This document shows positions 1 to 34,200 of a stretch of 54,403 nucleotides of DNA, piece by piece. Under the pieces are notes generated by a model. It was not told where the DNA came from and searched no databases. It was given only the letters and a program-made list of their open reading frames with translations. Source of the stretch: a virus (Duplodnaviria; Caudoviricetes); the IMG/VR virus record IMGVR_UViG_3300013114_000124, positions 1 to 54,403 of that record; one strand, 5' to 3'. The number at the start of each line of letters is the position of its first letter. Positions within the stretch are counted from its first letter, which is position 1. The translations under genes were made by a program, and so were the position numbers.

Positions 1-61
1 CGTGGTCTACTCGGTTCTTGTTTCCGTTTGCGTCTGTCCAAACTTGATTAAAATATCCCAT
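1..61 (-). CDS. Hypothetical protein, 5' part only (MGYFNQVWTDANGNKNRVDH...), runs off the window
   Basis: ATG at 61-59 after an A-rich leader, about 30 nt downstream of the tRNA-like element; frame open to the window edge. Confidence 0.55.
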   Translation of the reverse strand, partial: MGYFNQVWTDANGNKNRVDH

Positions 62-90
62 TTTCTATTTGATTTTAAGGGTTAAACTTG

Positions 91-170
91 TACCCGCAGT
101 GTGATTCGAACACACGTCTAAACATCTGTGTATCATAGATGAATTGTCCTAACCTCTAGACGATGCGGGC
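91..170 (-). ncRNA. tRNA-like RNA 1 (80 nt, aberrant 25-nt anticodon region)
   Basis: GCCCGCA/TGCGGGT acceptor stem; D arm GTCTAGAGGTTAGGAC (tRNA-Glu-like); T arm GTGTG-TTCGAAT-CACAC; variable loop AGAC; anticodon region ATTCATCTATGATACACAGATGTTT; followed by CAA, not CCA. Confidence 0.8.
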
Positions 171-183
171 GCACTTTAATTAT

Positions 184-579
184 TTATATTAAGCTATTAC
201 GTAGCTTATCTATAAACGATTCAACCTCATTGGATTGTTTTTCTATTTCGTCACTCCATACCTTTGCTAGATGAATAGAAAGGATTTGATTTTCTTTTAA
301 AACACGTTCTTTTGTCCAAATATTTTCAGTACCAAACCAAACAGTGTCCCATCCTACTACCCACATGTCCTCCATGTCTGCAACCTCTTCCCATCCTATA
401 ATATCGTCTGAGTTTTTAGAGAATGTAAGATTAACATGAGCATGGTGTTCTAACTTCTTATTTATCTCACCATATCCTAAACCGAAGTACGGATGTCTTC
501 TTGGTAGTGCAACATATCCGTTTCCCCAACCTCCTAACCCTTGTGGAGTCCAAGTGTTTTCTTTTAAAAATGCTTTCAT
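184..579 (-). CDS. Conserved phage hypothetical protein (GWGNGYV-x-LP-xx-HP...LTFS...W-x-xGWD type)
   Basis: ORF track 184..615; ATG at 579 preferred because it has an AT-rich leader and avoids overlap with the upstream gene. Confidence 0.75.
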   Translation of the reverse strand: MKAFLKENTWTPQGLGGWGNGYVALPRRHPYFGLGYGEINKKLEHHAHVNLTFSKNSDDIIGWEEVADMEDMWVVGWDTVWFGTENIWTKERVLKENQILSIHLAKVWSDEIEKQSNEVESFIDKLRNSLI

Positions 580-602
580 GATATTTATATTAAATTTGTT
601 TA

Positions 603-845
603 TTATCTCAGCCATCTGTTCAATTTTAAAGCTATTTTATATCTTAAAGTATTGCCGTGTTTTGCACGATTGATAGTGAACGCTATCTTATAGATTTGAT
701 AACCCACGACCATAGCAGTTAAGCCTACAGTTTTAGCTACTACAAATGTTTGTAGGTTAAAGCCACTAGTTTGTTCTGCTAACACTAAGCATAGCCCTGC
801 CATTATAAGCAAAGCTGATATGCTAAAAGTTAATATGTGTCTCAT
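603..845 (-). CDS. Small membrane protein (two hydrophobic segments)
   Basis: ORF with two hydrophobic helices, packed tightly in the leftward unit. Confidence 0.7.
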   Translation of the reverse strand: MRHILTFSISALLIMAGLCLVLAEQTSGFNLQTFVVAKTVGLTAMVVGYQIYKIAFTINRAKHGNTLRYKIALKLNRWLR

Positions 846-847
846 GA

Positions 848-1000
848 TTATATTAGTTTTAATTGCCTTTGCATTTCTTTATAGCGCATAATATCCCACG
901 CTTTTTTATAGCCTATGTTATGTAATTGCATTAATTTATGCACCATTTTTTCTTCGATAGACTGCACTCGCATACGTCTACGTTTTGGTTTATTTGCCAT
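848..1000 (-). CDS. Small basic hypothetical protein, 50 aa (MANKPKRRRMRVQSIEEKMVHKLMQLHNIGYKKAWDIMRYKEMQRQLKLI)
   Basis: Translated by hand; A-rich leader; stop lies 2 nt before the next ATG; below the ORF-track size cutoff. Confidence 0.7.
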   Translation of the reverse strand: MANKPKRRRMRVQSIEEKMVHKLMQLHNIGYKKAWDIMRYKEMQRQLKLI

Positions 1001-1023
1001 TTTTATTTAATTTAATTGATTTG

Positions 1024-1103
1024 CACCCATAGACAGATTCGAACTGCCGTCTATACACCGCGACGATTTTAGTGTATTGTCCTAGCCACTAGACGATATG
1101 GGC
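1024..1103 (-). ncRNA. tRNA-like RNA 2 (80 nt, 7-bp anticodon stem with 11-nt loop)
   Basis: GCCCATA/TATGGGT acceptor; D arm GTCTAGTGGCTAGGAC; ATACACT-AAAATCGTCGC-GGTGTAT arm; AGAC; T arm GGCAG-TTCGAAT-CTGTC; followed by CAA. Confidence 0.8.
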
Positions 1104-1110
1104 ATGATAT

Positions 1111-1140
1111 AAAAAGCCCTACACTTTTACATGTAGGGCT
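1111..1140 (-). terminator. Intrinsic terminator after the Rho_N-domain gene
   Basis: Minus strand AGCCCTACA-TGTAAAAG-TGTAGGGCT followed by a T run. Confidence 0.75.
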
Positions 1141-1170
1141 GTGAGGGATATGGATTGAGGCAAAAAAGGT

Positions 1171-1593
1171 TTATGCCGTTACTAAAGCTATTAATTCAGC
1201 TTTTTTCATCTTTGAAAATTTGGTTTTACCTTGTTTTTTAGCTACCTCTTTAAGCTGCGCTACGTTCATCTTCTCAATTGGAGTTAATGTAGGTGCAGTA
1301 TCAGATAAATTCGCAGCGCTTTTAATAGCCTTGTGTATTGCTTGTAACACAAAGAATGGGCTGTAATTTCCTGCCTTTGAAACTCGCACGTTCTCCTTGA
1401 ATGTAGCGTAAACATCGTTGTTTTCTCTAATCTCACTCAATATTTGAATGTATTGCGTGCTAAGCTCTATTTCATCTCTAAAAAGCCACAGTATTTTTAC
1501 TGCACCTCCTAATGATTTGCACTCTCGTTTTAACGCCTTGTTAGTGTTTAAAACGTTCATTTTGTAAGCTGAAATTTTGTTTGATTTTGCCAT
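1171..1593 (-). CDS. Protein with a C-terminal Rho N-terminal-like (HeH/SAP-like) nucleic-acid-binding domain
   Basis: C-terminal IEKMNVAQLKEVAKKQGKTKFSKMKKAELIALV fits the L..M.V.QLK..AK..G....S.M.K.ELI pattern. Confidence 0.75.
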   Translation of the reverse strand: MAKSNKISAYKMNVLNTNKALKRECKSLGGAVKILWLFRDEIELSTQYIQILSEIRENNDVYATFKENVRVSKAGNYSPFFVLQAIHKAIKSAANLSDTAPTLTPIEKMNVAQLKEVAKKQGKTKFSKMKKAELIALVTA

Positions 1594-1637
1594 AATTTAA
1601 AAATTTAATTATTGTTTATTGATTTTAATTAATAGAT

Positions 1638-2337
1638 GCCCATGACAATATGCACTACGTGTCATGGGCTATTGATATGTACCACTTTTGTGGATTTCAC
1701 GCACTGGTTTACTGCGCTTATGTAAATATATGTATACGGATTTATTCCGTTGGTGTAACTTAATAAAATGTTGGGTTTTTTTGAGCCTTGAAATATACAC
1801 GTTAGTACCACAGCTATTTTATTGTACTTTTGATAACTCATTACCTAGAGATAAAACCCGTCTGAAAAATGTTGGCGTATCGCTGACTAATGTATATGCA
1901 GGTTAGTTTCATACCTTTCCTGCCAACCACTCGAATAATCACGCTAGGGTATTTTACTCCCATTGTCACGCAGTGGCAACCTTTTTACACCTTTACGGTG
2001 CCCTATATGCGTTCACGCTTCTCACGCCCAACTGATAGGTTTTAATTCGTTTCAGTAAGGATTCTACTCACTTTGCGCTATAATAGTAGTTTAACGTGAC
2101 TAAACTCGCCATACGATTCACCCAATGCGCTGCACTCCTAATGCTTGACCATACCTGTGCTTACAGGGCATTTCACCCTTATTATATGCTTACACCTTTG
2201 TGCTTAGCATACCTGCTGAATTGCAGTACACGTGTAGAATTGCCATTCTACCATGGCGCCATTGTGGCTCCAAAACTACTTCGCTACCTAGTAACAAAGT
2301 TTTAAAATCATGTTGAAATCGTTATTTCGTTTCAACA
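1638..2337 (-). ncRNA. Candidate long structured RNA or leader (~700 nt)
   Basis: No minus-strand ORF in the track; lies downstream of a TATGTTTG promoter; multiple hairpins, with terminal stems at 2311-2337 and 1638-1669. Confidence 0.5.
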
Positions 2338-2340
2338 GTA

Positions 2341-2372
2341 CAAACATACGTGGCATTTTTGACATAGTAAAA
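2341..2372 (-). promoter_or_regulatory. Bacteroidota sigma70-type promoter driving the leftward unit
   Basis: -7 box TATGTTTG (complement of 2341-2348); TTTTA about 20 nt upstream as a -33-like box. Confidence 0.7.
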
Positions 2373-3671
2373 TCCTGATAATCAAGCAGTTAGAAATTAA
2401 AGTGTTGATAATCAGACAGTTAGCTAAGTAGCTGAGTATCAAGGACTTAAGCAAAATGCCTTCTCGGTTAAAGCGCTGAGTATCAGGTAGTTAGCTTGTT
2501 TGTAATCGCCGTTTTTCCCAAACTGAAAACCTAGAGTAAAAAAAATTCAAAAAAAATTAAAAAGGGCTTATAAGTAACTGATATTCAAGTAGTTACAAGC
2601 AAAAAAAATTTTAAAATTAGCTTTAAAGTTAAAAGGTTGATAATCAAGCAGTTATAAAATCGAGTTTGTAAGTAGCTGAGTATCAATAAGTTATAAATTT
2701 AAAAAATTACGTTTGTAAGTATCTGAGAATCAAGTAGTTAGAGTAAGTAGTTGATAATGAGGCAGTTACGTTAAAGTGTTGATACTCAAGTAGTTAGGCT
2801 ATAAGCACGTAAAAAGTTAAAGTGCTGAAAATCAGGTAGTTAAGTTTTGGCTAGGTAGAAGTTAAGCTAAAGTACTGAGTATCAGCAGGTTATGTTTAAA
2901 TGGTGTTTGTAAGTAGCTGAGGTTCAGGCAATTACGATTCTGGCTCATAAGGTAGATTAAAGGTAAAACGTTGATAATGAGGCAGTTACGGCTAAGTAGC
3001 TGAGTATCAGGCGCTTACACCGGCACCGAGAATTAAATAGTCGTAACTATCTGAAAGTCAGGCAATTAGGCGTAACTATCTGAGAATCAGGCGCTTACAC
3101 TGGCACCGAGACTTAAATAGGCGTAACTATCTGAGTATCAGGCGCTTACACCGGCAAGCATATTTAAGTAGTTGTAACTATCTGAGAATCAGGTAATTAG
3201 ACGTAACTAATTGATAATGAGGCAGTTAGATTAACTCTTAAAGTATATGGAATTCGCGCGCGCGTAAAGAGCGTAACTATCTGAGAATGAAGCAGTTAGA
3301 CGTAACTAATTGATAATGAGGCAGTTACGGTAGAGTGGGTGAATTGAGTGGGTAAATAATTGATAATGAGGCAGTTACGGGTAAGTGTTTGATAGTCAAA
3401 TGATTAGAGTATAAGTAGTTAATAGTAATATATAAGCCTGAGTATCAAGCAGTTAGAATAAAAAACCTACAATACATAACTGTTAAGCGCCTGATTGTCA
3501 AGGTGTTAAGTTTGTTAAGCTAGTGTTTAACAGATTTTACAGATACATTAGACAAAAGATGTAACTATCTGAGTATCAGCGATTTAGACTAGTGTTTTAG
3601 GGCATTTCAATAAATAAGTTATTAAAAAAGTCAAAAAATTTGCTCGTAAAAGCCTGAAAATCAAGCCCGTA
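2368..3671. repeat. Array of about 28 palindromic 25-bp sites, consensus TAA-N5-TGA-N3-TCA-N5-TTA
   Basis: Counted by eye, e.g. TAAGTAGCTGAGTATCAAGGACTTA, TAACTATCTGAGAATCAGGCGCTTA, TAACTAATTGATAATGAGGCAGTTA; no ORFs in the region. Confidence 0.9.
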
Positions 3672-3788
3672 CGCCTAAAAAAATCGGTTTTCCTTTTCAA
3701 AAAATTCCCGTTCCATTTATGTAATACCTTTGTACCTAGTCCGTCCTCAATAATTTCAAATTGGCTTGCATATGTGGAAAATATTTCG

Positions 3789-3796
3789 TATATTGC
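3789..3796 (+). promoter_or_regulatory. -7 box of the first rightward promoter
   Basis: TATATTGC, with TTGC about 20 nt upstream. Confidence 0.6.
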
Positions 3797-3835
3797 AAAG
3801 ACAGGAAAGTTACAACTAATTAAAATTACCGTAAA

Positions 3836-3997
3836 ATGGGCGTTAAAACACCAAAAAATGAGAAAAATACAGAGGTTTCGGCATACCCGTGCTTTACTGA
3901 GGAAGCTATAACTATCACTACTTCCTTCAAAGTACCCGTACCCGTTACATACAGGGTTGCTACGCCTCGCAAAATAAATAAAAGTGACGACAACTAA
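3836..3997 (+). CDS. Hypothetical protein, 53 aa (MGVKTPKNEKNTEVSAYPCF...)
   Basis: Translated by hand; first ORF after the promoter at 3789. Confidence 0.4.
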   Translation: MGVKTPKNEKNTEVSAYPCFTEEAITITTSFKVPVPVTYRVATPRKINKSDDN

Positions 3998-4025
3998 GTT
4001 TCAAATAATTTAAAGCCAAATAAGG

Positions 4026-4373
4026 GTGAAAACACAAAAAGAGACAGAGCAGAAAATAAATCACGGCCTAAGTAATGAATTATACACATTGTTGTGCGCC
4101 GTTGATTTTAAGCCGAAGTCAATGGCTTTTTATAATAGTAGACAAAAACCTAATGGAAGTTGGGATAACTTTTTAGACCACGTTGACTGTATGCAAAAGT
4201 GCGTTAAAAACCATATGGGCGGAAACTATGGATTAGCTGACGAATATCTAATAGTAAAGCACGATGGGATATTTAATTTTCGATACTTTGGCGACTCTTC
4301 TGCTAAAATAGAAAAGATTGCAGAAGCAGATAAGGAAAGTGTTTTACAGTATTGTGTACTAAAATCGTTGTAA
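4026..4373 (+). CDS. Hypothetical protein
   Basis: ORF track; GTG start; fills the space in the rightward unit. Confidence 0.6.
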   Translation: MKTQKETEQKINHGLSNELYTLLCAVDFKPKSMAFYNSRQKPNGSWDNFLDHVDCMQKCVKNHMGGNYGLADEYLIVKHDGIFNFRYFGDSSAKIEKIAEADKESVLQYCVLKSL

Positions 4374-4397
4374 TTTAATTATAAAAACAAAGTAAAA

Positions 4398-4565
4398 ATG
4401 GAAGATTTAAAAGTATTAGCCACAGCGCTAAATGACGCTACTAAAAAAGGGGCCTTCAATCTTGATGAAGCAGTAGCGATTTCTCAATCAATTAACAATT
4501 TAGTTAAGGCGTTGAAAAATTGTGAAAAATGCAAGCCTTGCGACTCAAATTGTGAAAAAGAATAG
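4398..4565 (+). CDS. Small helical hypothetical protein, 55 aa, with Cys-rich tail (MEDLKVLATALNDATKKGAFNLDEAVAISQSINNLV...)
   Basis: Translated by hand; A-rich leader AAAAACAAAGTAAAAATG. Confidence 0.7.
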   Translation: MEDLKVLATALNDATKKGAFNLDEAVAISQSINNLVKALKNCEKCKPCDSNCEKE

Positions 4566-4697
4566 CACTTTGTCGGATAAATTGACATGTTTTTAAATAA
4601 AACTATGGTTTTTCCGTAAAATTATTGTATTTGTTTTATGTTTATATTTGTACTGTTGTATTAAAATGATTATAATATAGCGTAAGCAATCGAAACT

Positions 4698-4726
4698 AGC
4701 CTACCTCTTTCGGGGTAGGTTTTTTT
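4698..4726 (+). terminator. Intrinsic terminator
   Basis: CCTACCTC-TTTCG-GGGTAGG hairpin followed by a T run. Confidence 0.8.
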
Positions 4727-4787
4727 ATGCTCCAATTTTTCTTATATTGTTACCCTAAAACGTTTTAATAATTAAAATCATAGTATT

Positions 4788-5117
4788 ATGGCAAAGAATG
4801 GGCCCGTTAAAAAGGGGAAAAAGAAGACCCACGTAGTAAAGGGTAAAAAGAATACTACATTGGTCACGAGTAAGTCTGTATCGGACGCTAAGAGTAAATC
4901 AGGAGTTTTTAAAAGTAGGCCTGCGTATAAAGGTAAGGAATCTAAATCAGGAGTCACAACTCACGACGGTACTTTTCATAAAGTGACTGGCCCTGTATCA
5001 AGAAGAGCTGCTAGAAAAGTCTTAGCTAAAGACAAAGCTCTATACGGAGCAAGCTCTGCGGCTCATAGTGCAAGAACTAATAGGTTCGCGACTGCAAAAA
5101 GAAGAAAAAGTAAATAA
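4788..5117 (+). CDS. Highly basic Lys/Arg-rich protein (histone-like, possibly DNA-condensing)
   Basis: Very K/R-rich; own promoter box (TATATTGT at 4743) and terminator. Confidence 0.7.
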   Translation: MAKNGPVKKGKKKTHVVKGKKNTTLVTSKSVSDAKSKSGVFKSRPAYKGKESKSGVTTHDGTFHKVTGPVSRRAARKVLAKDKALYGASSAAHSARTNRFATAKRRKSK

Positions 5118-5150
5118 TATAGAAAGGAGACTACAAATATATCTTAGAAG

Positions 5151-5177
5151 AGGCCTACTTAATAGTAGGTCTTTTTT
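5151..5177 (+). terminator. Intrinsic terminator
   Basis: AGGCCTACT-TAAT-AGTAGGTCT followed by a T run. Confidence 0.75.
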
Positions 5178-5860
5178 ATTACGCCCCCTCTAACAAAAGC
5201 CTACCTTAGAAAAAAGCCGCGCGCGCCGCTAATAAACTGATAGAGGGATTACAATTTTTTTATAGGTACAAATAAAGCTCTCCAAGGTAAAGCGTACTTA
5301 TTTATATAAAGTTACAATTAAATATAGGGGGGCATAGATATGTAGCTTTAAAAAACGCAAGGAGTTTACCTGCTCCCGCCGAGACTGAGTTTAAGCTTAC
5401 AGTTACAGTACGCTTTATCATGCTCCGAAGCCGCAAGGCATCACTTGCACTCTCACTGGCGTTCGTTCACAAGTGAATCAAACTAAAATTTTTGTTTTTT
5501 GTTAGCGAGGAATCGTAACTTTGTGGGTGCAGTACCTAGAGGGAGGCCGAACCTAAAAGGGTACTTATTAGTAGCGCTTAAAAAAGAAATACTATAATTT
5601 TCGCGTCCCTTAAAAAAACATTAGATTTAAAAATTGTGACGGCTAAGTCACTGATTAGCTAAAAACACTCGTAAGACCGTTATTCACACGGACGCATTAT
5701 TAATCAATTGAAATCTAAAAAGAATGTGAGACGTGTCAAAGGAGATTTAAGTTGCCTGAACCAAGTGCCTTACGATTATGACACAAGTTTAGAAACTTTT
5801 TACGTAGATTTTCGACTACTGATACTGCAATATACAAAAAATATTTCATATATCCAAATC

Positions 5861-5896
5861 GCAACAAAAAATACCTAATCGTCGCGGTATACTTGC
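5861..5896 (-). ncRNA. Candidate mini hairpin RNA (ATACC-GCGACGATTA-GGTAT then U-tract)
   Basis: Directly downstream of a minus-strand TATATTTG box (5901-5908); loop complementary to the loop of tRNA-like RNA 2. Confidence 0.45.
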
Positions 5897-6028
5897 ACTA
5901 CAAATATAAGGATTATTTTAACACTGTATTTTTACGCCCAAAGCCTTATTGCAACTGAGTGTTAATAACTTTTCTTATGCTCGCATAGTACTAAAAAAAG
6001 CGTAAAGAAAAAAGTCTTATATTGCACC

Positions 6029-6592
6029 ATGAAAAGATTTGCTTACGTTTTTTCAATAGTGTTTATTTTATTTGTTAATTTAAAGGGGAGCTCGGCTTAC
6101 ATATCCAAATCACCAATTACTCATTCAGCCTCTCCCCTTTATTTTTTAGACACTTCTGACGCGTCCTCTGTAAAAGTTGACAAACCCTTAATGCCTTACT
6201 ACGTATCATTCCTAAATTATATAGAAGATAACGACATAAAGTCTGAATATTTAGCTAGGAAGCTAGATGATATAGTGCTTTACCCTTTAGAGGACGGGTT
6301 ATACGGCCTTTACTCACCTGAAAATAGACAAATAGTGATAAACTCAAAGTATTTATACAGCGCTACTATATTAAGGAAGGTAATGTTCCACGAATTAGGA
6401 CATGTATACGGACTTAATCACTCAGAAAGCGGTATAATGCAAACTTATCAGACACCCTTAGATATATACGCATCTTACTTTACAGGAGAAGAGTACGACC
6501 CCTCCATATGGGAACTGCACAAAGCTAAAATGGCTCAAGACATAAAAAAGTCTTTTGTTTACGTTATTAGCAGAGAAAATTTGCTAGATTAA
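6029..6592 (+). CDS. Secreted or membrane-anchored zinc metallopeptidase (metzincin, matrixin-like)
   Basis: N-terminal signal peptide; HELGHVYGLNH fits HExxHxxGxxH; Met-turn SGIM. Confidence 0.8.
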   Translation: MKRFAYVFSIVFILFVNLKGSSAYISKSPITHSASPLYFLDTSDASSVKVDKPLMPYYVSFLNYIEDNDIKSEYLARKLDDIVLYPLEDGLYGLYSPENRQIVINSKYLYSATILRKVMFHELGHVYGLNHSESGIMQTYQTPLDIYASYFTGEEYDPSIWELHKAKMAQDIKKSFVYVISRENLLD

Positions 6593-7010: not shown

Positions 7011-8750
7011 TTATCTTTCCTTAACTGACCAAGTTGAATCTATTTCTAAAGTACAGTTATCATCATCTAACAGGTTTGCTATCTGCCAAAATACAAAATC
7101 GTTCTGATTTAGTATAACAGAAGTCTGTCCTGACCAAATACCTACATCTCTACCTCCTTGAAAGTTGTTAACTGTCCTTACTTGAGAATAAACTGTAGTT
7201 GTAACAGCATTAGCATCTGTCTTCATTAAGAATAGTTCGTAATTATCGTTATTCTTACCGTCTATCAATAAATCCCAATTAACTGTAAACTCTCTAGGGT
7301 TAATACCTATATGTCTTAATCTACCCGCAGAAGGGCTGTCGAAATGTTGTAAGTCTATCGTAGAAAAGTTTCCGTTTAAGTCCACTTGCACATTCTGAGC
7401 ACTTATAACAGTCTGAACCTCAGCGTCGTTGTTTATAGCTCCGCCAACAAAGGTATTAGCTATCCCTATATTGTTATCCCAATCACAAGGTAAATCAGCA
7501 GGGGATAAGTTAGGGAATATGTTACTGTCGTTTGCATCAAAAGCACCATCCCTACTTAATATGGCCCCTTTAACCTGAATAGTTGAAGGATTTGGGAAGT
7601 TGGACACTTCAAAATCACAAAGTGGCGCTAACGTAGGTAAATCACAGTTAATATCAGTTAAAAACCTTGAGTTCATTTGGAATGCTACACCTTCTTTAAA
7701 TAGTGGAGCAGTCATTGTGCCCGCTAAACTTCTAACAATACTTGTAGTTATTCTGTAACCACCTCTCCATAATCCGTGAAGCGTTAATGAAGGTGACCCT
7801 CCAAATCTACCTGTACCACTTTCTAACCCTTGCCTGTAATCATATATGTCCCCTAAACTGGTACAGTTTATATAATTTATCCTAGCAAACTCAAAAGCAT
7901 TGAATCCTGTACTATCATATAGCTCGTACACTTTAGAACCTGCTCCTGTAACTGATACATAGTAGTCAGCACCTAACAAGTTACCACTACCTATAGCTAT
8001 AGATTCAGAAACAAACATTGTGTAGTTATCTTCAGATGATGTAAGACCACTAATATCAAAAGATAGGCCTAATATAGTCATACCTGTAGGAGGCACAGTT
8101 ATCTGTGTACTACCCATATCAATTATACCGTCTAAGAAATATTGCTTAGTTGAATCTATTGTACCACCTAAAGTAGTGTCTTTATTAGCTTGAGTAACTA
8201 ATATTCTGTTATCTAAACCTCCCGCACTAAGTAAAAGGTTATTAATTTCATTAGCTATTGCGTTTCTATCTGACACCCACACAGAGCCATCCCAAACATA
8301 CCAACCTTCAGGGTAGTAATTGCCTCCTAGTGTACCAGGTAGCCAAGCAGTACCTTGAGAGTTTTCTACGTAAGCTATATCTCCTATCTCACTACCTGCA
8401 ATCAGAGCTGAGTAATTATCAGCTTGCTGCTTTATAGGTATACCTCCACCATCAGCGGCAAATACTATAGGGTTTAAGTATAATATTAAAGAGTCTAAAT
8501 CACTAAACGTAGTTACACCGTCAGAGCTATACTCAGAAATAGGTCTCTCCCTAGTTATTACAGTTTGATTTTCATTTACACTACGTATCCCTACAGTTAC
8601 TTCGCTCTTTATTACATTATCAGACGAATCTAATAAAATAGTTCCGTATGTTATAGTGTAGTCTCCTCTTCTATATTCTAGGCCGTCGACATTAAACAGA
8701 GTGTCTGCATCTACGGTACTAGCTTTTACAGTTATAAATTTCTTTGCCAT
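7011..8750 (-). CDS. Putative virion-associated fibre or adhesin-like protein; N-terminal domain shared with 9666..10538
   Basis: Beta-rich G/S/T/N/D composition; GWYVWDGSVW motif; own promoter box TATCTTTG (8780-8787, minus). Confidence 0.6.
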   Translation of the reverse strand: MAKKFITVKASTVDADTLFNVDGLEYRRGDYTITYGTILLDSSDNVIKSEVTVGIRSVNENQTVITRERPISEYSSDGVTTFSDLDSLILYLNPIVFAADGGGIPIKQQADNYSALIAGSEIGDIAYVENSQGTAWLPGTLGGNYYPEGWYVWDGSVWVSDRNAIANEINNLLLSAGGLDNRILVTQANKDTTLGGTIDSTKQYFLDGIIDMGSTQITVPPTGMTILGLSFDISGLTSSEDNYTMFVSESIAIGSGNLLGADYYVSVTGAGSKVYELYDSTGFNAFEFARINYINCTSLGDIYDYRQGLESGTGRFGGSPSLTLHGLWRGGYRITTSIVRSLAGTMTAPLFKEGVAFQMNSRFLTDINCDLPTLAPLCDFEVSNFPNPSTIQVKGAILSRDGAFDANDSNIFPNLSPADLPCDWDNNIGIANTFVGGAINNDAEVQTVISAQNVQVDLNGNFSTIDLQHFDSPSAGRLRHIGINPREFTVNWDLLIDGKNNDNYELFLMKTDANAVTTTVYSQVRTVNNFQGGRDVGIWSGQTSVILNQNDFVFWQIANLLDDDNCTLEIDSTWSVKER

Positions 8751-27379: not shown

Positions 27380-28720
27380 ATGGCATTAAATGCAAATCCA
27401 GCTCCATCGTTTACTCCAAGCTCTATCAAGAAGCCTACGAGCGAGAACTATATCGACATCTTCGATTACACTACTCAGTACGAACCGGACGCTTACGAAA
27501 AGTTAATATCTATCTATGGAGACCAATCTCTTATGGGTATGTTATTTGAATTAGGTAGCGAAGAAGCTATCTCATCTGACCAATACATTTGGACTGAAAA
27601 AGGACGTTTACACACTTCTTACAGTGACGTAGCTCGTGCAGCTAACGTATTTACTAAAGCAGGACATGTTTACCGTGTAGGTGAAGTTGTTGCTTGTAGT
27701 GGTAACGGAAATTTCCAATTAGGTCGTATTACAGCAGTAGACGCTAACACTTTCACAGCAGTACCTTATAAGGCTGCAGGTTGGTTAGTTGGTACAGCTG
27801 ATATCACAACTTTCATCTCTCACTCTGAGTTCAAGAAGAACACAGGAGGTATGGAAGGTTCTTTAGAAACTGATTTTACTGTTCTTAACAACAAGACTAT
27901 CATTTTCAAAGACAACTACATCGCTTCAGGTTCTGACGTAACTCAAGATTCTTGGGTACAGACTGACAACGGAGGTTTTGTATGGTACTTACAGTCTGAA
28001 TTAGACGGACGTAGAAGATTCGAAGACAGAGTTGAAATGGGTCTTATCTTAGGACAAGACGCTGAAGCAGGTTCTGACGCTGCAACTGCAGGTTACGAAG
28101 GTTCTGAAGGTTTATTTGAGTCAGTAAAGAGTAGAGGTAACATCTTTGATGGTTTAGCTACTGCTTTAACTGATTTTGATTCTATCCTTAAGCGTTTCGA
28201 CCAACAAGGAAAAATCCGTGAGTATATGTTCTACGTAGACAGAGACCAATCTTTAGCTATCGATGACTTATTAGGTTCATTGAACGCAGGTTACTCTACT
28301 GGAATTTCTTTCGGTATGTTTGATAACTCTGAAGAAATGGCTGTAAACTTAGGTTTCACAGGTTTCAAAAGAGGAACTTACAACTTCTACAAGTCTGATT
28401 GGAAATTGTTGAACGACCCTACTTTATTAGGTGGTGTTCCTGCAGCAGACGGTAAAGTAAGAGGTTTATTAGTACCTTACGGAGATAAGGAAGTTTATGA
28501 CGGAACTAGCACTATGGCTGACCGAATCACTAAGCCTTACTTATCTATCAAGTACAGAGTTAAAGGTCAAGAGAACAGACGTCACAAAACTTGGATTACA
28601 GGTTCTGTTGGAACGTCAACTCCAACTGATGACAATGACCACATGAGAGTAAATCACCTTGCAGATAGAGGTGTATGTGTGGTAGGAGCTAACAACTTCA
28701 TGATTTTTGAAGGAGCATAA
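27380..28720 (+). CDS. Major capsid protein
   Basis: 446 aa; position; WTEKGRLH, GSEGLF, NLGFTGFKRG, GANNF motifs; strong codon bias; followed by a terminator. Confidence 0.85.
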   Translation: MALNANPAPSFTPSSIKKPTSENYIDIFDYTTQYEPDAYEKLISIYGDQSLMGMLFELGSEEAISSDQYIWTEKGRLHTSYSDVARAANVFTKAGHVYRVGEVVACSGNGNFQLGRITAVDANTFTAVPYKAAGWLVGTADITTFISHSEFKKNTGGMEGSLETDFTVLNNKTIIFKDNYIASGSDVTQDSWVQTDNGGFVWYLQSELDGRRRFEDRVEMGLILGQDAEAGSDAATAGYEGSEGLFESVKSRGNIFDGLATALTDFDSILKRFDQQGKIREYMFYVDRDQSLAIDDLLGSLNAGYSTGISFGMFDNSEEMAVNLGFTGFKRGTYNFYKSDWKLLNDPTLLGGVPAADGKVRGLLVPYGDKEVYDGTSTMADRITKPYLSIKYRVKGQENRRHKTWITGSVGTSTPTDDNDHMRVNHLADRGVCVVGANNFMIFEGA

Positions 28721-30384: not shown

Positions 30385-31247
30385 TGCCAATAAGAAATTT
30401 TACAAATTTAGATAATTACTATAATGATAATGACCAATGGGGCAATCACCAATATGTAACTATAAAAGATGTGGTTAACAACTTCATGTTTGAACAAGAA
30501 GATGATAGTTACGTAGGTAGTGTTAATAGGAACAGAGTTGTTTATCACGCTAAGAGAGCTGTTCAAGAATTATACTTTGATGTTTTAAACGAAGTTATAG
30601 CTATTGAGTTTGACCTTACACCTACTCTAATTATACCTATCCCGCATGACTACGTTAACTATGTTAGAATATCGTGGGTAGACAGTAACGGAAAATTACA
30701 CCCTTTAGCAGTAGATAACAGTAGTAACTTAGCTCAAGCTTATTTACAAGATGATTCATACGAATACCTGTACGACCAAGACGGAGCAATCTTACAAGGT
30801 AATCACATACAAGATTTAGGCGGGGACACACTAGGAGACCAAAGTTACCTAGCTGCGTCAGGAGTATCTTCTCCTATGCCTAACTTTAACACGGACGCAT
30901 CTAAGGTATTTAAGAATGGTTCTTACAAAATAGATAAGGACAGAGGTGTAATACAATTCTCATCTACAGTTACAGGAAGAACTATTGTTTTAGAGTATAT
31001 ATCAGACGGGCTGTTCCAAAGAGAGGATTCTGATATAAGAATACACAAGTTTGCAGAAGAAGCAGCTTACAACTTCATATACCACAAGCTAATCTCAAAG
31101 AAAAGGAATGTACCTTACAATGAGAAGATGAGAGCTAGACAAGAGTACTACAACTCGAGAAGAGTGGCTAAAAGAAGAATAACTCCTATAAGATTTGAGG
31201 AAATAAGACAAGTTATGAAGTCTCAAAACAAAATGATTAAGAACTAG
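30384..31247 (+). CDS. Second tail ring protein
   Basis: P.DYVNYVRISW and IVLEYISDG motifs; translationally coupled. Confidence 0.7.
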   Translation: MPIRNFTNLDNYYNDNDQWGNHQYVTIKDVVNNFMFEQEDDSYVGSVNRNRVVYHAKRAVQELYFDVLNEVIAIEFDLTPTLIIPIPHDYVNYVRISWVDSNGKLHPLAVDNSSNLAQAYLQDDSYEYLYDQDGAILQGNHIQDLGGDTLGDQSYLAASGVSSPMPNFNTDASKVFKNGSYKIDKDRGVIQFSSTVTGRTIVLEYISDGLFQREDSDIRIHKFAEEAAYNFIYHKLISKKRNVPYNEKMRARQEYYNSRRVAKRRITPIRFEEIRQVMKSQNKMIKN

Positions 31248-31248
31248 T

Positions 31249-34200
31249 ATGAAACAAGAACAAGGTAAAAATACATTCATAGGAAGTAGAATGGATAAAG
31301 ATACCGACTCTCGTTTACTAGAGCCAGGTGTTTATAGAGATGCCCTTAATGTAAGGGTAGGTAATTCTAGCGGTTCTGATGTAGGGGCCTTAGAAAACTC
31401 TCTATCTAATAAAAAACTGACTAACAAAAGTTTTGGAGCTAATGCTACGTGCATAGGAATGTATTCAGATAAAAACGAACAAAAGGTATATTGGTTCGTT
31501 GTCTCAGACGATGGTAGCTACGTAATGGAACATGATTTCCCTAACGGAGTTACGTCTGTTGTATTAGAAGATACCTCAGCAGGTGTTCTCAACTTTAACA
31601 AAGAGTACTTAATAACAGGAGTTAACATTATAATAGATACAGACAAGAAAAGGAGACTTTTATATTGGACTGATAATCTAAACCCTCCTAGAAGTATTAA
31701 CATAGATAGAGCTAAGACTTACGGAGCTAACAACTTTACAGAAGAGCAGATAAGTGTAATCAAAGCTCCCCCTTTACAAAAGCCTTCTATAGCATTAGGA
31801 CAAACTAACACAGGCTTAGAGAATAACATAGAGGAAAAATTCTTAAGGTTTGCTTATAGATATAGATACCTAGACGGTGAGTATAGCGCACTCTCTTCTT
31901 TCTCTGAAACAGCTTTCTTAGCTAAGCCCTTCAACTTTGACTACGCAGTAAGTTCTAACGAAGGTATGGTAAACAACTTTAGTAAAGTTAGTATCGCCTT
32001 TAATACAGGCTCTAAACTAGTTACTGAAATAGATGTAGTGTTTAAAGAATCAGGAACTAATACAGTCTATTTAGTAGACAGTTACAAAAAAGAATCTAAG
32101 AATTGGGGAGACAATGAGAATCAATTTGTAGAGTTCTTCAACAATAAAATAAAGAAAGCTTTAGACCAAGACCAATTATTTAGGTTATATGACGCAGTGC
32201 CCCTCAAAGCAAAGGCACAAGAGTTAATAGGTAATAGGTTAGTATACGGATTCTACACAGAGAATTATAACATAGAGGACGCTAACGGTTCTGCAATAGA
32301 TGTAGATTTCTCTCTAGAGGGTATTAACACAGCTATAAATATAGGCACACCTACAGAGTCACTTAAAAGTAACAGGGATTACGAGATAGGTATAGTTTAT
32401 CTAGATAAGTACGGAAGACAAACATCTGTACTTACATCGGAGAATAATACTATAAACTTCCCTAACATAGACTCTTTAACTCAAAATCAAATTAAAGCTG
32501 TAGTAAATAGCCCTGCACCAAACTTTGCAGAAAAGTTTAGATTCTACATTAAACAAACAAGAGAGGATTACGATATAATCGTACCCACTATTTTTTATTT
32601 GGACGGGCCTTACGTATGGGTTAAATTGGAAGGTAGCGAAGACAATAAGATAGAGGAAGGAGATTACTTATATGTAAAAGCTGACACACAAGAGGTATTA
32701 CCTCAGTTGGTGCAAACCAAAGTGTTAGAGATTAAGAATCAACCCAAAGATTTCTTAGAAGACAGTAACAAGCAGTTATCAGGTAATTACATGAGATTAA
32801 AACCTAATAACTATAGGCTAGACCCTGACGACTACGAATTTTACGATTGGGACAGTTACGACAGTTCTAAAAACGCTAATGATAACCCTATAAGAGGTAA
32901 CCAATCTTATGTAGAACCTGCAGTTTATTATGGTACGTCACTATCAGATGACTTAACATCTAGCGGAACTTACACAGGCTTAGTTGACGAGAGATACGAA
33001 ATAGAGATAATAGTTACAGGAGCGACAGATGAGTTTAGATGGACTAAAGATGAAGGTCAGAATTGGTCAGCTAACACACCTATTACAGGTGCTGCTCAAG
33101 CAATAGAGAACGGAGTTGAAATAACATTCGCATCTGTAACAGGGCACAGCTTAGATGACTCTTGGGTAGTAGGAGCTAAGTCAAGTTCAGACGACAGTTT
33201 TGGAGGTTCGGAGAGTTCTAAAGCTTACGGATTTTTTAAAGGGCCTGATACAAATAACGGCGTTATATATGGAGGCGCTAGGATAGAGTGGGAATACTCT
33301 GAGTACGGAGAAGAAACTCAAAAGATAACTAGGAACTTCGTATCAACTAGAAAGTACGAAAACATAGAAGAGTGGTATTACGGAGATAATATTTACGACG
33401 AGATATCTGAAATAGGAGAGAGTAGAATATGGTTTAGAAGAGGGCTCGTAGAGTTCAATTACCCCGGCAACCAATACAATAACTCTAAGCACATCACAGT
33501 AGACCCTGCAGAGGATATGGTTATGATTGTGAAAAGTAAAGGTACTCAGAACAGCGACCTTGACGGAGTTGTAAAACTAAGAACAAGCTTAGAAATATTC
33601 CAAGCAGAGCAAAATGTAATCTTTGAAACTATACCGTTTTCAAATGATGCAGCGCCATTCTTTGAGATAGGACAAACTTACGACGTAGTTAATGGGTTCC
33701 ACACTAGCAGTAACGCTTCAGATGTAGACCAAGCTTTAGGTGTAGCAGGAGAGTTTGTACTAGATGTGTTTAACTGCATAGCTTGGGGGAACGCTTTTGA
33801 AAGCTACAAGATAAAAGATTTGTTTAACGCTAAGACTATGAAGATAGACACTAGACCTTCTGATAGTATCGAAGATTACTCAGAGAACATAAGGATAGCG
33901 TCTTTAACTTATAGCAAGGTTTATGAGCAAACTCTTAATTATAATGGTACTAATGAGTTTAACTTATCTACTATAAACTTTGTAGATATAGACGACAAGT
34001 ATAACTCTATACAGAAACTATTCTCTAGAGACACAGATTTAATCGTTTTTCAAGAAGATAAGCTACACAAAATGCCTTTTGAGAAAGACGTATTATTTAC
34101 TGCCGCAGGAGAAGGAGCTGTAACAGAAAGTAATAAAGTATTTGGTAAAGAGATTCCTTACGCAGGAGAGTTTGGTATATCTCTTAACCCTGAGAGTTTT

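What the first reader, a model, noticed from the sequence alone, without database searches (positions are those of the whole stretch)
91..1103. Two 80-nt tRNA mimics with identically enlarged but sequence-unrelated anticodon arms
Seen: 91-170 and 1024-1103 (minus) share acceptor (GCCC.../...GGGT), D arm (GTCTAGnGGyTAGGAC), AGAC variable loop and TTCGAAT T-loop. Their acceptor and T stems differ but still pair (GTGTG/CACAC versus GGCAG/CTGTC). Both have a 25-nt anticodon region instead of the canonical 17, with different sequences, and both end in CAA. Each lies about 25-30 nt before the ATG of a small gene. Inference: the fold is under selection but not for normal decoding. Options are a tRNA scaffold displaying a variable guide or kissing loop, RNase P/Z processing or stabilising elements for the early mRNA, or decoys for anticodon nucleases (PrrC, RloC, PARIS AriB). 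In RNA 2 only, removing 8 nt after position 37 gives a canonical arm with anticodon AAA.
Basis: partly seen in the sequence, partly recalled or inferred. Interest (0 to 1): 0.85.

Follow-up and report, generated by a model that had tools for sequence, protein, structure and literature searches.

The report
Two non-decoding phage tRNA-Glu relics
A marine phage keeps two genes that fold like glutamate tRNAs but have lost the part that reads codons, and its closest known relative also carries a shortened glutamate-charging enzyme that lacks the part that reads the anticodon, so the two may work together outside normal translation.

Summary
Rfam's tRNA model hits 1024-1103(-) at 50.7 bits and 91-170(-) at 41.3 bits (cut-off 29). 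Each has 8 extra bases in the anticodon loop, and ARAGORN calls neither.

The window is about 75% of a Callevirus-like Flavobacteriia phage. In phi38:1, G005 and G006 the syntenic genes are ordinary tRNA-Glu(UUC).

One closer relative, metagenome contig L182, has orthologues of both RNAs. RNA2 keeps a 25-nt arm with 13 of 15 loop bases identical. RNA1 has a 19-nt arm, so the shared length of 25 nt is not conserved.

The tRNA bodies are 63/65 and 57/65 identical, against 65% at third codon positions. Of 21 pairs, 12 show compensatory changes. These are therefore selected, non-decoding tRNA-Glu derivatives. They are neither pseudogenes nor intron-bearing tRNAs.

L182 also encodes a 291-aa GluRS catalytic core with no anticodon-binding domain, 4.8 kb downstream in the same operon.

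My best guess (about 0.4) is that the RNAs are anticodon-independent substrates or partners of that enzyme. The window itself lacks that region, and nothing on expression or charging could be tested. The rivals are processing elements, decoys and display scaffolds.

The parts
91..170 (-). RNA1: an 80-nt tRNA-Glu-derived, non-decoding tRNA-like gene
   Evidence: RF00005 scores 41.3 bits against a cut-off of 29. ARAGORN makes no call. The orthologue at L182 7373-7446(-) scores 88 bits with model R1 and 42.8 bits with RF00005. The body is identical at 63 of 65 positions.
120..144 (-). RNA1 anticodon-arm replacement: a 25-nt hairpin. The basal 5 'pairs' include two U.U mismatches, and three more pairs can extend the stem.
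   Evidence: Seen in the cmscan alignment and in the fold of the isolated arm. The L182 orthologue has the same basal stem, but the loop is 6 nt shorter, giving a 19-nt arm.
1024..1103 (-). RNA2: an 80-nt tRNA-Glu-derived, non-decoding tRNA-like gene
   Evidence: RF00005 scores 50.7 bits. The orthologue at L182 8545-8624(-) scores 83.3 bits with R1 and 50.0 bits with RF00005. The body is identical at 57 of 65 positions.
1053..1077 (-). RNA2 anticodon-arm replacement: a 5-6 bp stem closing a 13-15-nt loop
   Evidence: In L182 the arm is also 25 nt and 13 of 15 loop positions are identical. The basal pair changes from A-U to C-G, a compensatory change.
1115..1140 (-). Terminator-like hairpin with a T run, ending 11 nt before the 5' end of RNA2
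   Evidence: It is the only terminator-like site in window 1-1800. phi38:1 has a comparable hairpin before one of its tRNA-Glu genes (sequence). L182 shows none at this position in the sequence (judged by eye).
1171..1593 (-). 140-aa early gene directly upstream of RNA2. It serves as the synteny anchor (homologue of phi38:1 gp056).
   Evidence: tblastn gives 42% identity to phi38:1 32547-32870, and 49% and 44% to G005 and G006. It is 85% identical to L182 8890-9306.
184..1000 (-). Three small early ORFs between the two RNAs: 848-1000 (50 aa), 603-845 (80 aa) and 184-615 (143 aa)
   Evidence: ORF list. The 50-aa and 80-aa ORFs have L182 homologues at 68% and 77.5% identity. The 143-aa ORF is replaced in L182 by two other small ORFs.
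1..63 (-). Start of the gene that follows RNA1 and runs off the window's left end
   Evidence: The ATG at 63 is visible in the sequence. The first 20 residues are 80% identical to the 79-aa ORF at L182 7106-7345.

Best explanation
**What they are (shown).** The two elements are paralogous, non-decoding tRNA-like RNAs. They descend from the pair of tRNA-Glu(UUC) genes that Callevirus-type phages of Flavobacteriia carry inside their early, minus-strand operon.

In the common ancestor of this phage and contig L182, the anticodon arm of each copy turned into a plain hairpin that cannot read a codon. The rest of the tRNA stayed under purifying selection. That includes:
- the acceptor stem with G1.U72;
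- the Glu-type 'augmented D helix' (U11-A24, U13.G22, A46, no residue 47);
- the 15:48 tertiary pair;
- the T arm.

**How they most likely work (inferred).** They act through the tRNA body.
1. They are cut out of the early polycistronic transcript by the host tRNA-end enzymes and receive CCA.
2. They then serve as anticodon-independent substrates or partners of a phage-encoded glutamyl-tRNA synthetase catalytic core that has no anticodon-binding domain.
3. That enzyme is encoded 4.8 kb downstream in the same operon of the closest relative.

The product would be a glutamate-carrying (or enzyme-bound) tRNA-like RNA that stays out of translation. What the glutamate is then used for is unknown.
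For: **Origin and selection (shown)**
- Both elements hit RF00005, and ARAGORN calls neither.
- The syntenic genes in phi38:1 (two identical copies), G005 and G006 are 72-76-nt tRNA-Glu genes with a 7-nt loop carrying UUC. They share G1.U72 and A73.
- L182 has orthologues of both RNAs in the same order and spacing, each with a homologous non-canonical arm.
- Body identity between the window and L182 is 63/65 for RNA1 and 57/65 for RNA2. Third codon positions of three neighbouring genes are 174/268 (65%) identical. The binomial probabilities are 4e-10 and 3e-5.
- In the alignment of 7 sequences, 96.6% of cells pair, 12 of 21 pairs change on both sides and 0 of 500 shuffles reach the score. The D stem never varies.
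- The 15:48 pair covaries: G:C in 5 sequences and A:U in 2 of the 7.

**Link to the GluRS core (inferred)**
- L182 1698-2573(-) matches Pfam tRNA-synt_1c at E 1.1e-48. Its best NCBIfam match is bacterial GluRS at 220.9 bits, and the match ends at model position 315 of 470. The HIGH and KLSKR motifs are present.
- The PDB alignment ends at about residue 310-317 of 468-aa GluRS chains.
- The nearest 75 or so homologues are all 234-327 aa long, so this is a real truncated family.
- The gene is rare. It is absent from phi38:1, G001-G006, G013 and G014, from 37 other viral records and from 56 further records searched with profile A3 (16 of these belong to the MCP-found Callevirus-like set).
- Its co-occurrence on one 10.7-kb contig with the equally rare anticodon-less tRNA-Glu genes is therefore unlikely to be chance.
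- The E. coli tRNA-Glu identity elements that lie outside the anticodon loop are exactly those that never vary here (passages of PMC9976931).
- In GTDB contigs, 4 of 6 complete truncated GluRS ORFs have tRNA-Glu/Gln genes in their flanks, against 10 of 74 full-length ones (Fisher p 0.0076).
Against: - The window holds no PF00749 match at all. The stretch where the gene would lie is missing from this roughly 75%-complete record, so the pairing rests on one relative contig.
- Other viral records with odd Glu-type arms have no such enzyme (0 of 37).
- In the bacterial loci the truncated enzyme sits beside tRNA-Glu/Gln genes with normal anticodons. The pairing therefore does not require loss of the anticodon.
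- In E. coli the anticodon-loop bases are the strong GluRS determinants (PMC9976931 passage). Whether a core enzyme charges an anticodon-less body is untested.
- The L182 copy of RNA2 has lost one G of the D-loop GG and has a U.U in the T stem. This hints at some relaxation of constraint.
- No acceptor of the glutamate is identified.
- There are no data on transcription, ends, CCA addition or charging.
Confidence: 0.4

Rival explanations
1. Processing and punctuation elements only. The tRNA body is kept because RNase P and RNase Z cut the early polycistronic RNA at it. That releases and stabilises the downstream small-gene mRNAs, whose ATGs lie 23-27 nt after the RNA. The arm is free to drift, and the excised RNA has no job of its own.
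For: - The position is conserved. Every orthologue ends about 20-30 nt before an ATG: in the window, in phi38:1 and in L182.
- RNA1's arm tolerates a 6-nt indel.
- The window has dropped all other tRNAs, yet these two sites persist.
- A terminator-like hairpin sits just upstream of RNA2.
- Gene cassettes differ between the two RNAs in the window and in L182, and a variant contig has an extra cassette bounded by copies of RNA1's 3' end.
Against: - RNase P and Z need mainly the acceptor and T arms (established knowledge, recalled). Yet the Glu-specific D helix, the 4-nt variable loop and the 15:48 pair are all kept.
- RNA1's arm stem is identical at 14 of 14 positions, and RNA2's loop at 13 of 15 (p about 0.06).
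- It does not explain why a GluRS core appears in the same lineage.
Confidence: 0.25
2. A decoy or sponge. An abundant anticodon-less tRNA-Glu body would titrate a host factor that recognises tRNA-Glu or the GluRS-tRNA-Glu complex, such as a tRNA-directed defence nuclease, a kinase or another toxin. Because it cannot decode, it would not disturb translation.
For: - The genes lie in the early operon.
- Relatives carry intact tRNA-Glu copies there, and phi38:1 also has an RtcB ligase, so tRNA damage is plausibly an issue for this phage group.
- The Glu-specific body features are conserved.
- Phage tRNAs that counter tRNA-cutting defences are on record. I saw only the search listing and abstract of PMC11455837 and PMC13096335.
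Against: - Known anticodon nucleases read the anticodon loop (recalled). Here the loops mimic no anticodon loop, and RNA1's loop changes length between relatives.
- No defence system aimed at tRNA-Glu in Flavobacteriia was identified here.
Confidence: 0.15
3. A tRNA scaffold that displays a functional hairpin in place of the anticodon arm, such as a guide, a kissing loop or a protein-binding site.
For: - RNA2's 15-nt loop is 13/15 identical and has no indel between the window and L182, and its basal pair changes in a compensatory way.
- Other viral contigs hold Glu-type tRNA bodies with enlarged arms, for example L057 (11-nt loop), L080, L084 and L072.
Against: - Complements of the two loops occur in the window only at chance level. 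There are 2 further one-mismatch sites for RNA2 (3 of 100 shuffles give as many total matches) and 1 for RNA1 (26 of 100 shuffles).
- A possible 5-bp contact between the two loops is not kept in L182 (judged by eye).
- The conservation of RNA2's loop is only marginal (p 0.06).
- The host genome could not be searched because the host is unknown.
Confidence: 0.1
4. Real decoding tRNAs. They would either carry a mini-intron of 8 nt that is spliced out, or read codons with an expanded loop.
For: - Removing 8 nt after position 37 of RNA2 leaves a 7-nt loop.
- ARAGORN in intron mode calls RNA2.
- phi38:1 encodes RtcB.
Against: - The would-be anticodon is AAA in the window and UAA in L182, on a Glu-type body.
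- ARAGORN's own readings disagree with each other: Val with an intron, Leu, Ser, Tyr or undetermined.
- For RNA1, every way of removing 8 nt leaves C at position 33 (read from the sequence). Its orthologue has a 9-nt loop, or a 5-nt loop if the stem is extended.
- An 8-nt intron is too short for a bulge-helix-bulge motif (established knowledge, recalled).
- The window holds no splicing endonuclease or RtcB domain.
Confidence: 0.03
5. Decaying tRNA-Glu pseudogenes with no function.
For: - The phage has lost its whole tRNA cluster.
- The anticodon is gone.
- The L182 copy of RNA2 has a weakened elbow and a U.U in the T stem.
Against: - The arms were already altered before the window and L182 diverged. 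Since then the bodies stayed 97% and 88% identical while third codon positions fell to 65%.
- Between the two copies in the window, 5 pairs changed on both sides with no broken pair in the acceptor or T stems.
Confidence: 0.04

Closest known systems
tRNA-Glu(UUC) genes of Callevirus phages (Cellulophaga phage phi38:1, features N360_gt001 and N360_gt002, and the same genes in IMG/VR relatives)
   Same: - Position in the early minus-strand operon, shortly before a small gene.
- Two copies.
- G1.U72 and A73.
- D stem GUCU/GGAC, a 4-nt variable loop and a similar T loop.
- No encoded CCA.

   Different: - Those genes have a 17-nt arm with a 7-nt loop and the anticodon UUC, and ARAGORN and the GenBank annotation call them tRNA-Glu.
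- The window's copies have 25-nt arms with no usable anticodon.
- The window's two copies have diverged from each other (52 of 80 positions identical). The phi38:1 copies are identical.
Non-aminoacylated tRNA-like RNAs cut out by tRNA-end enzymes, e.g. mascRNA from MALAT1
   Same: A tRNA-like cloverleaf without a conserved anticodon loop, embedded in a longer transcript. I read passages of PMC9976931 through. [quoted passage not shown]
   Different: mascRNA is eukaryotic and unrelated in sequence. Here the ancestry from a true tRNA-Glu is traceable, and Glu identity elements outside the anticodon are kept. Processing here is inferred and has not been shown.
GluQRS (YadB), the GluRS paralogue without an anticodon-binding domain that glutamylates queuosine in the tRNA-Asp anticodon loop
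   Same: The L182 protein has the same architecture: about 290-300 aa with only the class I Glu/Gln catalytic core. It hits the GluQRS models at 90-142 bits and PDB 1nzj at E 3e-18.
   Different: - It scores higher against bacterial GluRS (220.9 bits) than against GluQRS (142.1 bits) and is below the curated cut-off of both. It is therefore a separate truncated family.
- What GluQRS does is recalled knowledge, not a tool result.
- Whether the phage enzyme acts on the 3' end or on the enlarged loop is unknown.
Bacterial Y RNAs of the YrlA type (tRNA-mimicking partners of Ro, often next to RtcB)
   Same: They are non-decoding RNAs that mimic the tRNA body, with a helix in place of the anticodon arm. 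Phages can carry Ro with a 'tRNA-like partner' (passage of PMC7824862).
   Different: - No Rfam family other than tRNA hits the window's elements.
- Here the acceptor ends are open and tRNA-like.
- No Ro gene was looked for or seen.
- The YrlA architecture is recalled, not tested.
Phage tRNAs that counter tRNA-cleaving defence systems (e.g. the T5 tRNA that neutralises PARIS; tRNA-Tyr and Septu)
   Same: Phage-encoded tRNA-type genes whose value lies in conflict with the host and not in codon supply (search listings and abstracts of PMC11455837 and PMC13096335).
   Different: Those are functional decoding tRNAs that resist or replace cleaved host tRNAs. The RNAs here cannot decode.

Membership tests
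tRNA (Rfam RF00005) | Covariance-model score at or above the gathering score | tested here: met
   50.7 and 41.3 bits against 29. The orthologues score 50.0 and 42.8 bits.
tRNA (functional, decoding) | A 7-nt anticodon loop with U33 and an anticodon that is conserved among orthologues | tested here: not met
   - The loops are 15 nt long on a 5-bp stem.
- The orthologue of RNA1 has a loop 6 nt shorter.
- The triplet at positions 34-36 of RNA2 differs between orthologues, AAA against UAA.
- ARAGORN in default mode makes no call in the window.
tRNA (functional, decoding) | A cloverleaf with tertiary-pair signatures: U8, A14, G18G19, the 15:48 pair and the T-loop UUC | tested here: met
   All are present in both window copies. 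The 15:48 pair covaries across the 7 sequences. G19 is lost only in the L182 copy of RNA2.
tRNA-Glu (identity set as defined for E. coli GluRS) | The augmented D helix: U11-A24, U13.G22 with A46, and no residue 47 | tested here: met
   - The D stem is invariant in 7 of 7 sequences.
- All 7 have a 4-nt variable loop with A at the third position.
- The definition comes from passages of PMC9976931.
tRNA-Glu (identity set as defined for E. coli GluRS) | [quoted passage not shown] | tested here: not met
   Neither arm has UUC in a loop position. The relatives phi38:1, G005 and G006 do have it.
Intron-containing tRNA (archaeal or eukaryal type) | An intron after position 37 in a bulge-helix-bulge context, with a splicing endonuclease available | tested here: not met
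   - The 8-nt insert is too short for the motif (recalled).
- The window has no PF01974 match and no RtcB.
- The exon-derived anticodon is not conserved.
- The host's enzymes could not be examined.
tmRNA and other Rfam tRNA-like families (clan CL00001 and the rest of Rfam 15) | A better match to another family | tested here: not met
   Only RF00005 is reported for these sites, both at gathering thresholds and at E up to 10. ARAGORN finds no tmRNA.
Glutamyl-tRNA synthetase (for the L182 protein P0001) | Class I Glu/Gln catalytic domain with HIGH and KMSKS-type motifs | tested here: met
   PF00749 at E 1.1e-48. The HIGH and KLSKR motifs are visible in the translation, and both are invariant or nearly so in 52 family members.
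Glutamyl-tRNA synthetase (for the L182 protein P0001) | A C-terminal anticodon-binding domain and a score above the equivalog cut-off | tested here: not met
   - The protein ends at model position 315 of 470.
- It scores 220.9 bits, below the cut-off of 289.95.
- Its PDB alignments stop near residue 310-337 of 468-490-aa chains.
GluQRS / YadB (for P0001) | A score above the NCBIfam equivalog cut-off | tested here: not met
   142.1 bits against a cut-off of 276.7 for TIGR03838. The other GluQRS models are also below their cut-offs.

The most novel reading that the evidence does not exclude
A phage-encoded, translation-orthogonal pair. The enzyme is a GluRS catalytic core stripped of its anticodon-binding domain. 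Its substrates are two tRNA-Glu bodies stripped of their anticodons.

Together they would make glutamyl-tRNA-like RNAs that cannot enter the ribosome's decoding cycle. These could serve as activated-glutamate carriers for a non-ribosomal transfer reaction during early infection, or as a bait complex for a host factor that attacks GluRS-tRNA-Glu.

A variant is that the core acts like GluQRS on the enlarged loop itself.

This would be a natural aaRS-tRNA pair evolved for a purpose other than protein synthesis, in a virus.
Probability: 0.3. Interest if true: 0.88.

Novelty: new variant of a known kind. Interest (0 to 1): 0.62.

Why it matters
Phage tRNA genes are usually read as codon-supply or anti-defence devices that still decode. 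Here the ancestry from true tRNA-Glu genes can be traced, the loss of decoding can be placed on a lineage, and continued selection on the body can be measured. That makes it a clean natural case of a tRNA turned to a new, non-decoding use.

If the link to the anticodon-domain-less GluRS holds, three things follow:
- It would be a natural orthogonal synthetase-tRNA pair, which is of interest for synthetic biology.
- It would be a new route by which phages use activated amino acids or target host glutamyl-tRNA metabolism.
- The truncated GluRS family is large in marine metagenomes, and I found no paper on it in five searches. The question therefore reaches beyond this one phage.

If the link fails, the finding is still a well-supported pair of tRNA-derived elements in a phage early operon.

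Tried and rejected
- **Exact-pattern scans of IMG/VR.** The full element found nothing. A looser pattern found only L057.
- **Neighbour-gene searches in IMG/VR.** Searches with ORF 184-615, the 579-aa gene and ORF 1171-1593 brought 54 loci. None held an RNA1 or RNA2 orthologue. Most of these loci are short or only distantly related.
- **Custom model R1 in the genome search.** It gave 0 of 17, even for phi38:1 where cmsearch scores 55 bits. This was a failure of the first-look filter and not a result. I repeated the search with RF00005 and with cmsearch on fetched DNA.
- **Truncated GluRS contexts.** The IMG/VR search with the truncated GluRS found nothing, probably because the exact peptide words were poorly chosen.
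- **Cultured phages.** They hold no close homologue of the GluRS core. The best is 40% identity, and several hits look like bacterial DNA filed under phage records.
- **Guide or kissing loop.** Complements of the loops occur at chance level in the window. A 5-bp contact between the two loops is not kept in L182 (judged by eye).
- **ARAGORN with introns or a lower threshold.** It gives mutually inconsistent identities, so I rejected these as evidence of decoding.
- **Minimum-free-energy folds.** Folds of the whole RNAs prefer a non-cloverleaf pairing of the D-stem strand with the variable loop. I give this no weight because covariation supports the cloverleaf.
- **Sequencing runs.** Three DNA runs of one study hold window 1-1700 almost unchanged, with no variant inside either RNA. 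One of them may be the source sample, so they are not independent. The single RNA run gave one 151-nt contig at 412-562 and nothing over the RNAs. Contigs cannot show small RNAs, ends or splicing, so this says nothing on expression.
- **Neighbours of a truncated GluRS on a Paracoccus plasmid.** The Pfam scan gave no hint of an acceptor enzyme.
- **Steps not taken.** I made no structure prediction and no complex prediction. The complex tool does not take RNA, and the domain limits were already clear.
Full report
**1. The observation**

Read on the minus strand, window 170-91 (RNA1) and 1103-1024 (RNA2) are each 80 nt. They share:
- a 7-bp acceptor stem beginning with a G.U pair;
- the D stem GUCU/GGAC with an 8-nt loop that contains GG;
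- a 4-nt variable loop AGAC;
- the T loop UUCGAAU.

Rfam's tRNA model scores them at 41.3 and 50.7 bits against a gathering score of 29. Both alignments place 8 extra bases in the anticodon loop, and these are the only two Rfam hits in the window. The picture is the same at E up to 10 over window 1-6200. ARAGORN finds no tRNA or tmRNA in the window.

The two arms (window 144-120 and 1077-1053) are both 25 nt long and are identical at only 10 of 25 positions. CAA follows the discriminator in both. The next ATG follows after 27 nt for RNA1 and 23 nt for RNA2.

**2. The genome**

The window is a linear IMG/VR virus record that CheckV estimates to be 75% complete.

Its major capsid protein is 77.5% identical to those of Cellulophaga phages phi38:1, phi40:1 and Calle_1 (Callevirus, Pervagoviridae, 72.5-73 kb). 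Gene order matches phi38:1 across the structural block and the GroEL/exonuclease block.

The window's left end lies in the early minus-strand operon. ORF 1171-1593 is the homologue of phi38:1 gp056. The part of the genome missing from the record is the stretch that follows RNA1 in that operon.

**3. More distant relatives have ordinary tRNA-Glu genes at these sites**

phi38:1 carries two identical 72-nt tRNA-Glu genes in the same operon, at 28605-28676 and 30575-30646 on the minus strand. Each lies about 20 nt before a small gene and has a 7-nt loop with the anticodon UUC.

IMG/VR relatives G005 and G006 have the same kind of gene just downstream of their gp056 homologues. All of them share G1.U72 and A73 with the window's RNAs, and none encodes CCA.

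RF00005 finds 10-22 tRNAs in six of the eight Callevirus-like records that have any match (2 and 9 in the other two; 8 of 17 records searched, and 3 of the 3 complete ones). The window has none besides RNA1 and RNA2. Where phi38:1 has its 14-tRNA cluster, the window has an ORF-free stretch full of a 27-nt repeat.

**4. A closer relative shows that the altered arms are old and the bodies are selected**

It carries orthologues of both RNAs in the same order and spacing:
- 7373-7446(-), at 88 bits with my model R1 and 42.8 bits with RF00005;
- 8545-8624(-), at 83.3 bits with R1 and 50.0 bits with RF00005.

Neighbouring proteins are 68-85% identical to the window's, and their third codon positions are 174/268 = 65% identical.

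Against that background:

| | RNA1 | RNA2 |
|---|---|---|
| Body identity outside the 15 loop columns | 63/65 | 57/65 |
| Binomial P | 4e-10 | 3e-5 |
| Arm length, window / L182 | 25 / 19 nt | 25 / 25 nt |
| Loop comparison | 6-nt indel; 7 of the 9 aligned loop positions identical | 13/15 identical (P 0.06) |

(All.)

Both arms are recognisably homologous between the two phages. RNA1 keeps the same basal stem, including its two U.U mismatches. RNA2's basal pair changes from A-U to C-G.

The anticodon was therefore lost before the two phages diverged, and the RNAs have been kept since. The shared 25-nt length in the window is not a conserved feature.

**5. Structure**

I aligned 7 sequences: the window's two RNAs, L182's two, phi38:1, G006 and the L057 element. 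G005 was left out because a bulge in its T stem shifts the columns.

- The cloverleaf pairs in 96.6% of cells.
- 12 of 21 pairs change on both sides.
- 0 of 500 shuffles reach the covariation score.
- Sliding the partners by 1-3 columns drops pairing to 29-51%.
- The D stem never varies.
- The 15:48 tertiary pair covaries: G:C in five sequences and A:U in two.

[quoted passage not shown] All are present in all seven sequences. The anticodon-loop elements are absent from the four altered RNAs.

**6. What they are not**

- **Not decoding tRNAs with a mini-intron.** The triplet left in RNA2 after removing 8 nt is AAA here and UAA in L182, on a Glu-type body. In RNA1 every 8-nt removal leaves C at position 33. 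ARAGORN's calls under relaxed settings contradict each other. The window holds no splicing endonuclease or RtcB domain.
- **Not pseudogenes.** See section 4.
- **Not another Rfam family**.
- **No support for a guide role inside this genome**.

**7. The unexpected neighbour**

Downstream of the RNA1 orthologue, L182 encodes ORFs of 79, 102, 882, 359 and 125 aa, and then a 291-aa protein at 1698-2573(-). That 291-aa protein:
- matches the class I Glu/Gln synthetase catalytic domain at E 1.1e-48;
- scores best against bacterial GluRS (220.9 bits), with its best-scoring stretch ending at model position 315 of 470;
- scores lower against GluQRS (142.1 bits), and is below the curated cut-offs of both;
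- has the HIGH and KLSKR motifs;
- aligns to solved GluRS chains only up to about residue 310-337 of 468-490.

It is therefore a GluRS core without the anticodon-binding domains.

Its close homologues, roughly the top 75 at 50-92% identity, are all 234-316 aa long. They come from marine and other metagenomes, some on contigs of 50-73 kb. In an alignment of 52 of them, the catalytic motifs are invariant or nearly so.

The gene is rare among the records I could search:
- absent from phi38:1, G001-G006, G013 and G014;
- absent from 37 other viral records that hold odd Glu-type tRNA bodies;
- absent from 56 further viral records;
- without a close homologue in cultured phages;
- represented in PHROGs only by a 493-position profile.

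In GTDB contigs, 6 of the 80 best GluRS-like loci are complete 278-302-aa ORFs. Four of these six have tRNA-Glu or tRNA-Gln genes in their flanks, against 10 of 74 full-length loci (Fisher p 0.0076). All of those tRNAs have normal anticodons.

**8. Model**

*Shown:*
- descent from tRNA-Glu;
- loss of decoding;
- selection on the body;
- variable arm length in RNA1.

*Inferred:*
- excision by RNase P and RNase Z and addition of CCA, as for the ancestral tRNA genes, which also lack an encoded CCA;
- use of the body by the GluRS core.

The inference of a link rests on two rare traits that fit each other mechanistically. One is a Glu synthetase that cannot read an anticodon, and the other is Glu-type tRNA bodies that have none. 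They occur together on one contig of the only lineage known to have either.

The inference is weakened by four things:
- the gene's absence from the sequenced part of this phage;
- the single co-occurrence;
- the normal anticodons beside truncated GluRS genes elsewhere;
- the complete lack of expression or charging data.

I put the non-decoding, selected tRNA-Glu-derivative reading at about 0.9 and the GluRS-core partnership at about 0.4. The main rival is that the elements survive only as processing sites for the early mRNAs (0.25), followed by decoy (0.15) and display scaffold (0.1).

**9. Comparison and novelty**

The nearest known things are:
- the phage's own ancestral tRNA-Glu genes;
- non-aminoacylated tRNA-like RNAs such as mascRNA;
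- the GluQRS paralogue of GluRS;
- tRNA-mimicking Y RNAs;
- phage tRNAs used against tRNA-cutting defences.

None of these combines a traceable tRNA origin, loss of the anticodon, retained synthetase identity elements and an anticodon-blind synthetase nearby.

Five literature searches listed no paper on such RNAs or on a truncated phage GluRS. They were keyword searches of open-access text and do not prove absence. Supplements were not seen.

I file the finding as a new variant of a known kind (non-decoding tRNA-like RNA). A bolder reading, a natural orthogonal pair, stays open at about 0.3.

**10. Limits**

- The host is unknown.
- The sequencing-run data are contigs from a single study and cannot show small RNAs.

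Noticed in passing
window 2366-3666 (+): A 1.3-kb ORF-free stretch holds at least 19 copies of a roughly 27-nt unit (family D1; further overlapping families suggest about 30). Each unit ends in a short, palindrome-like core. The stretch sits where phi38:1 has its cluster of 14 tRNA genes. It could be iterons, operators or a protein sponge.
   Followed up: partly
window, whole: The phage has no ordinary tRNA gene at all. Callevirus-like relatives with tRNA matches mostly give 10-22 RF00005 hits.
   Followed up: yes
L182 1698-2573 (-): A 291-aa GluRS catalytic core without an anticodon-binding domain. It belongs to a large family of 234-327-aa homologues in marine metagenomes that PHROGs and cultured phages do not represent. 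One family-specific feature: the motif that reads EDTD in the solved GluRS aligned reads DDTD here, and it is invariant in the family.
   Followed up: partly
L183, L184, L186, L188 (GTDB contigs): Complete truncated GluRS ORFs of 278-302 aa lie near clusters of tRNA-Glu or tRNA-Gln genes. In L186, three tRNA-Glu genes sit directly upstream. The count is 4 of 6 truncated loci against 10 of 74 full-length loci.
   Followed up: partly
L057 4426-4501 (-): A Glu-type tRNA body with the same D arm, variable loop and T loop as RNA2, but an 11-nt anticodon loop and an encoded CCA. It lies inside a cluster of 23 ordinary tRNAs that already includes tRNA-Glu(UUC) and tRNA-Glu(CUC). ARAGORN does not call it. 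Other IMG/VR contigs (L080, L084, L072, L099) also show Glu-type bodies with enlarged arms.
   Followed up: partly
L007 636-2558 and 6387-6467: An unrelated phage contig carries a homologue of window ORF 184-615 and 21 tRNAs, several of them 81-89 nt long. A weak tRNA-like hit (19.9 bits with R1) has only an acceptor and T arm and lies directly after that ORF homologue.
   Followed up: no
window 63-103 and 594-627: In two DNA runs, a 362-nt contig joins 103->68 to 627->594, then has 262 other letters, then 92->63. This is a strain variant with an extra small cassette bounded by copies of RNA1's 3' end plus trailer. Together with the different genes between the two RNAs in L182, it suggests that the tRNA-like genes mark cassette-exchange points.
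   Followed up: no
L058 19247-20650 (phi38:1 gp030): The relative phi38:1 encodes an RtcB-type RNA ligase annotated as 'tRNA splicing ligase'. The window's 54 kb has no RtcB domain.
   Followed up: partly
window 39101-48352 (+) and 50491-52053 (-): A 3083-aa ORF lies at the end of the structural block, with only 30% identity over 641 residues to the phi38:1 structural protein gp101. The phage also carries a GroEL (PHROG chaperonin, E 4e-131).
   Followed up: no
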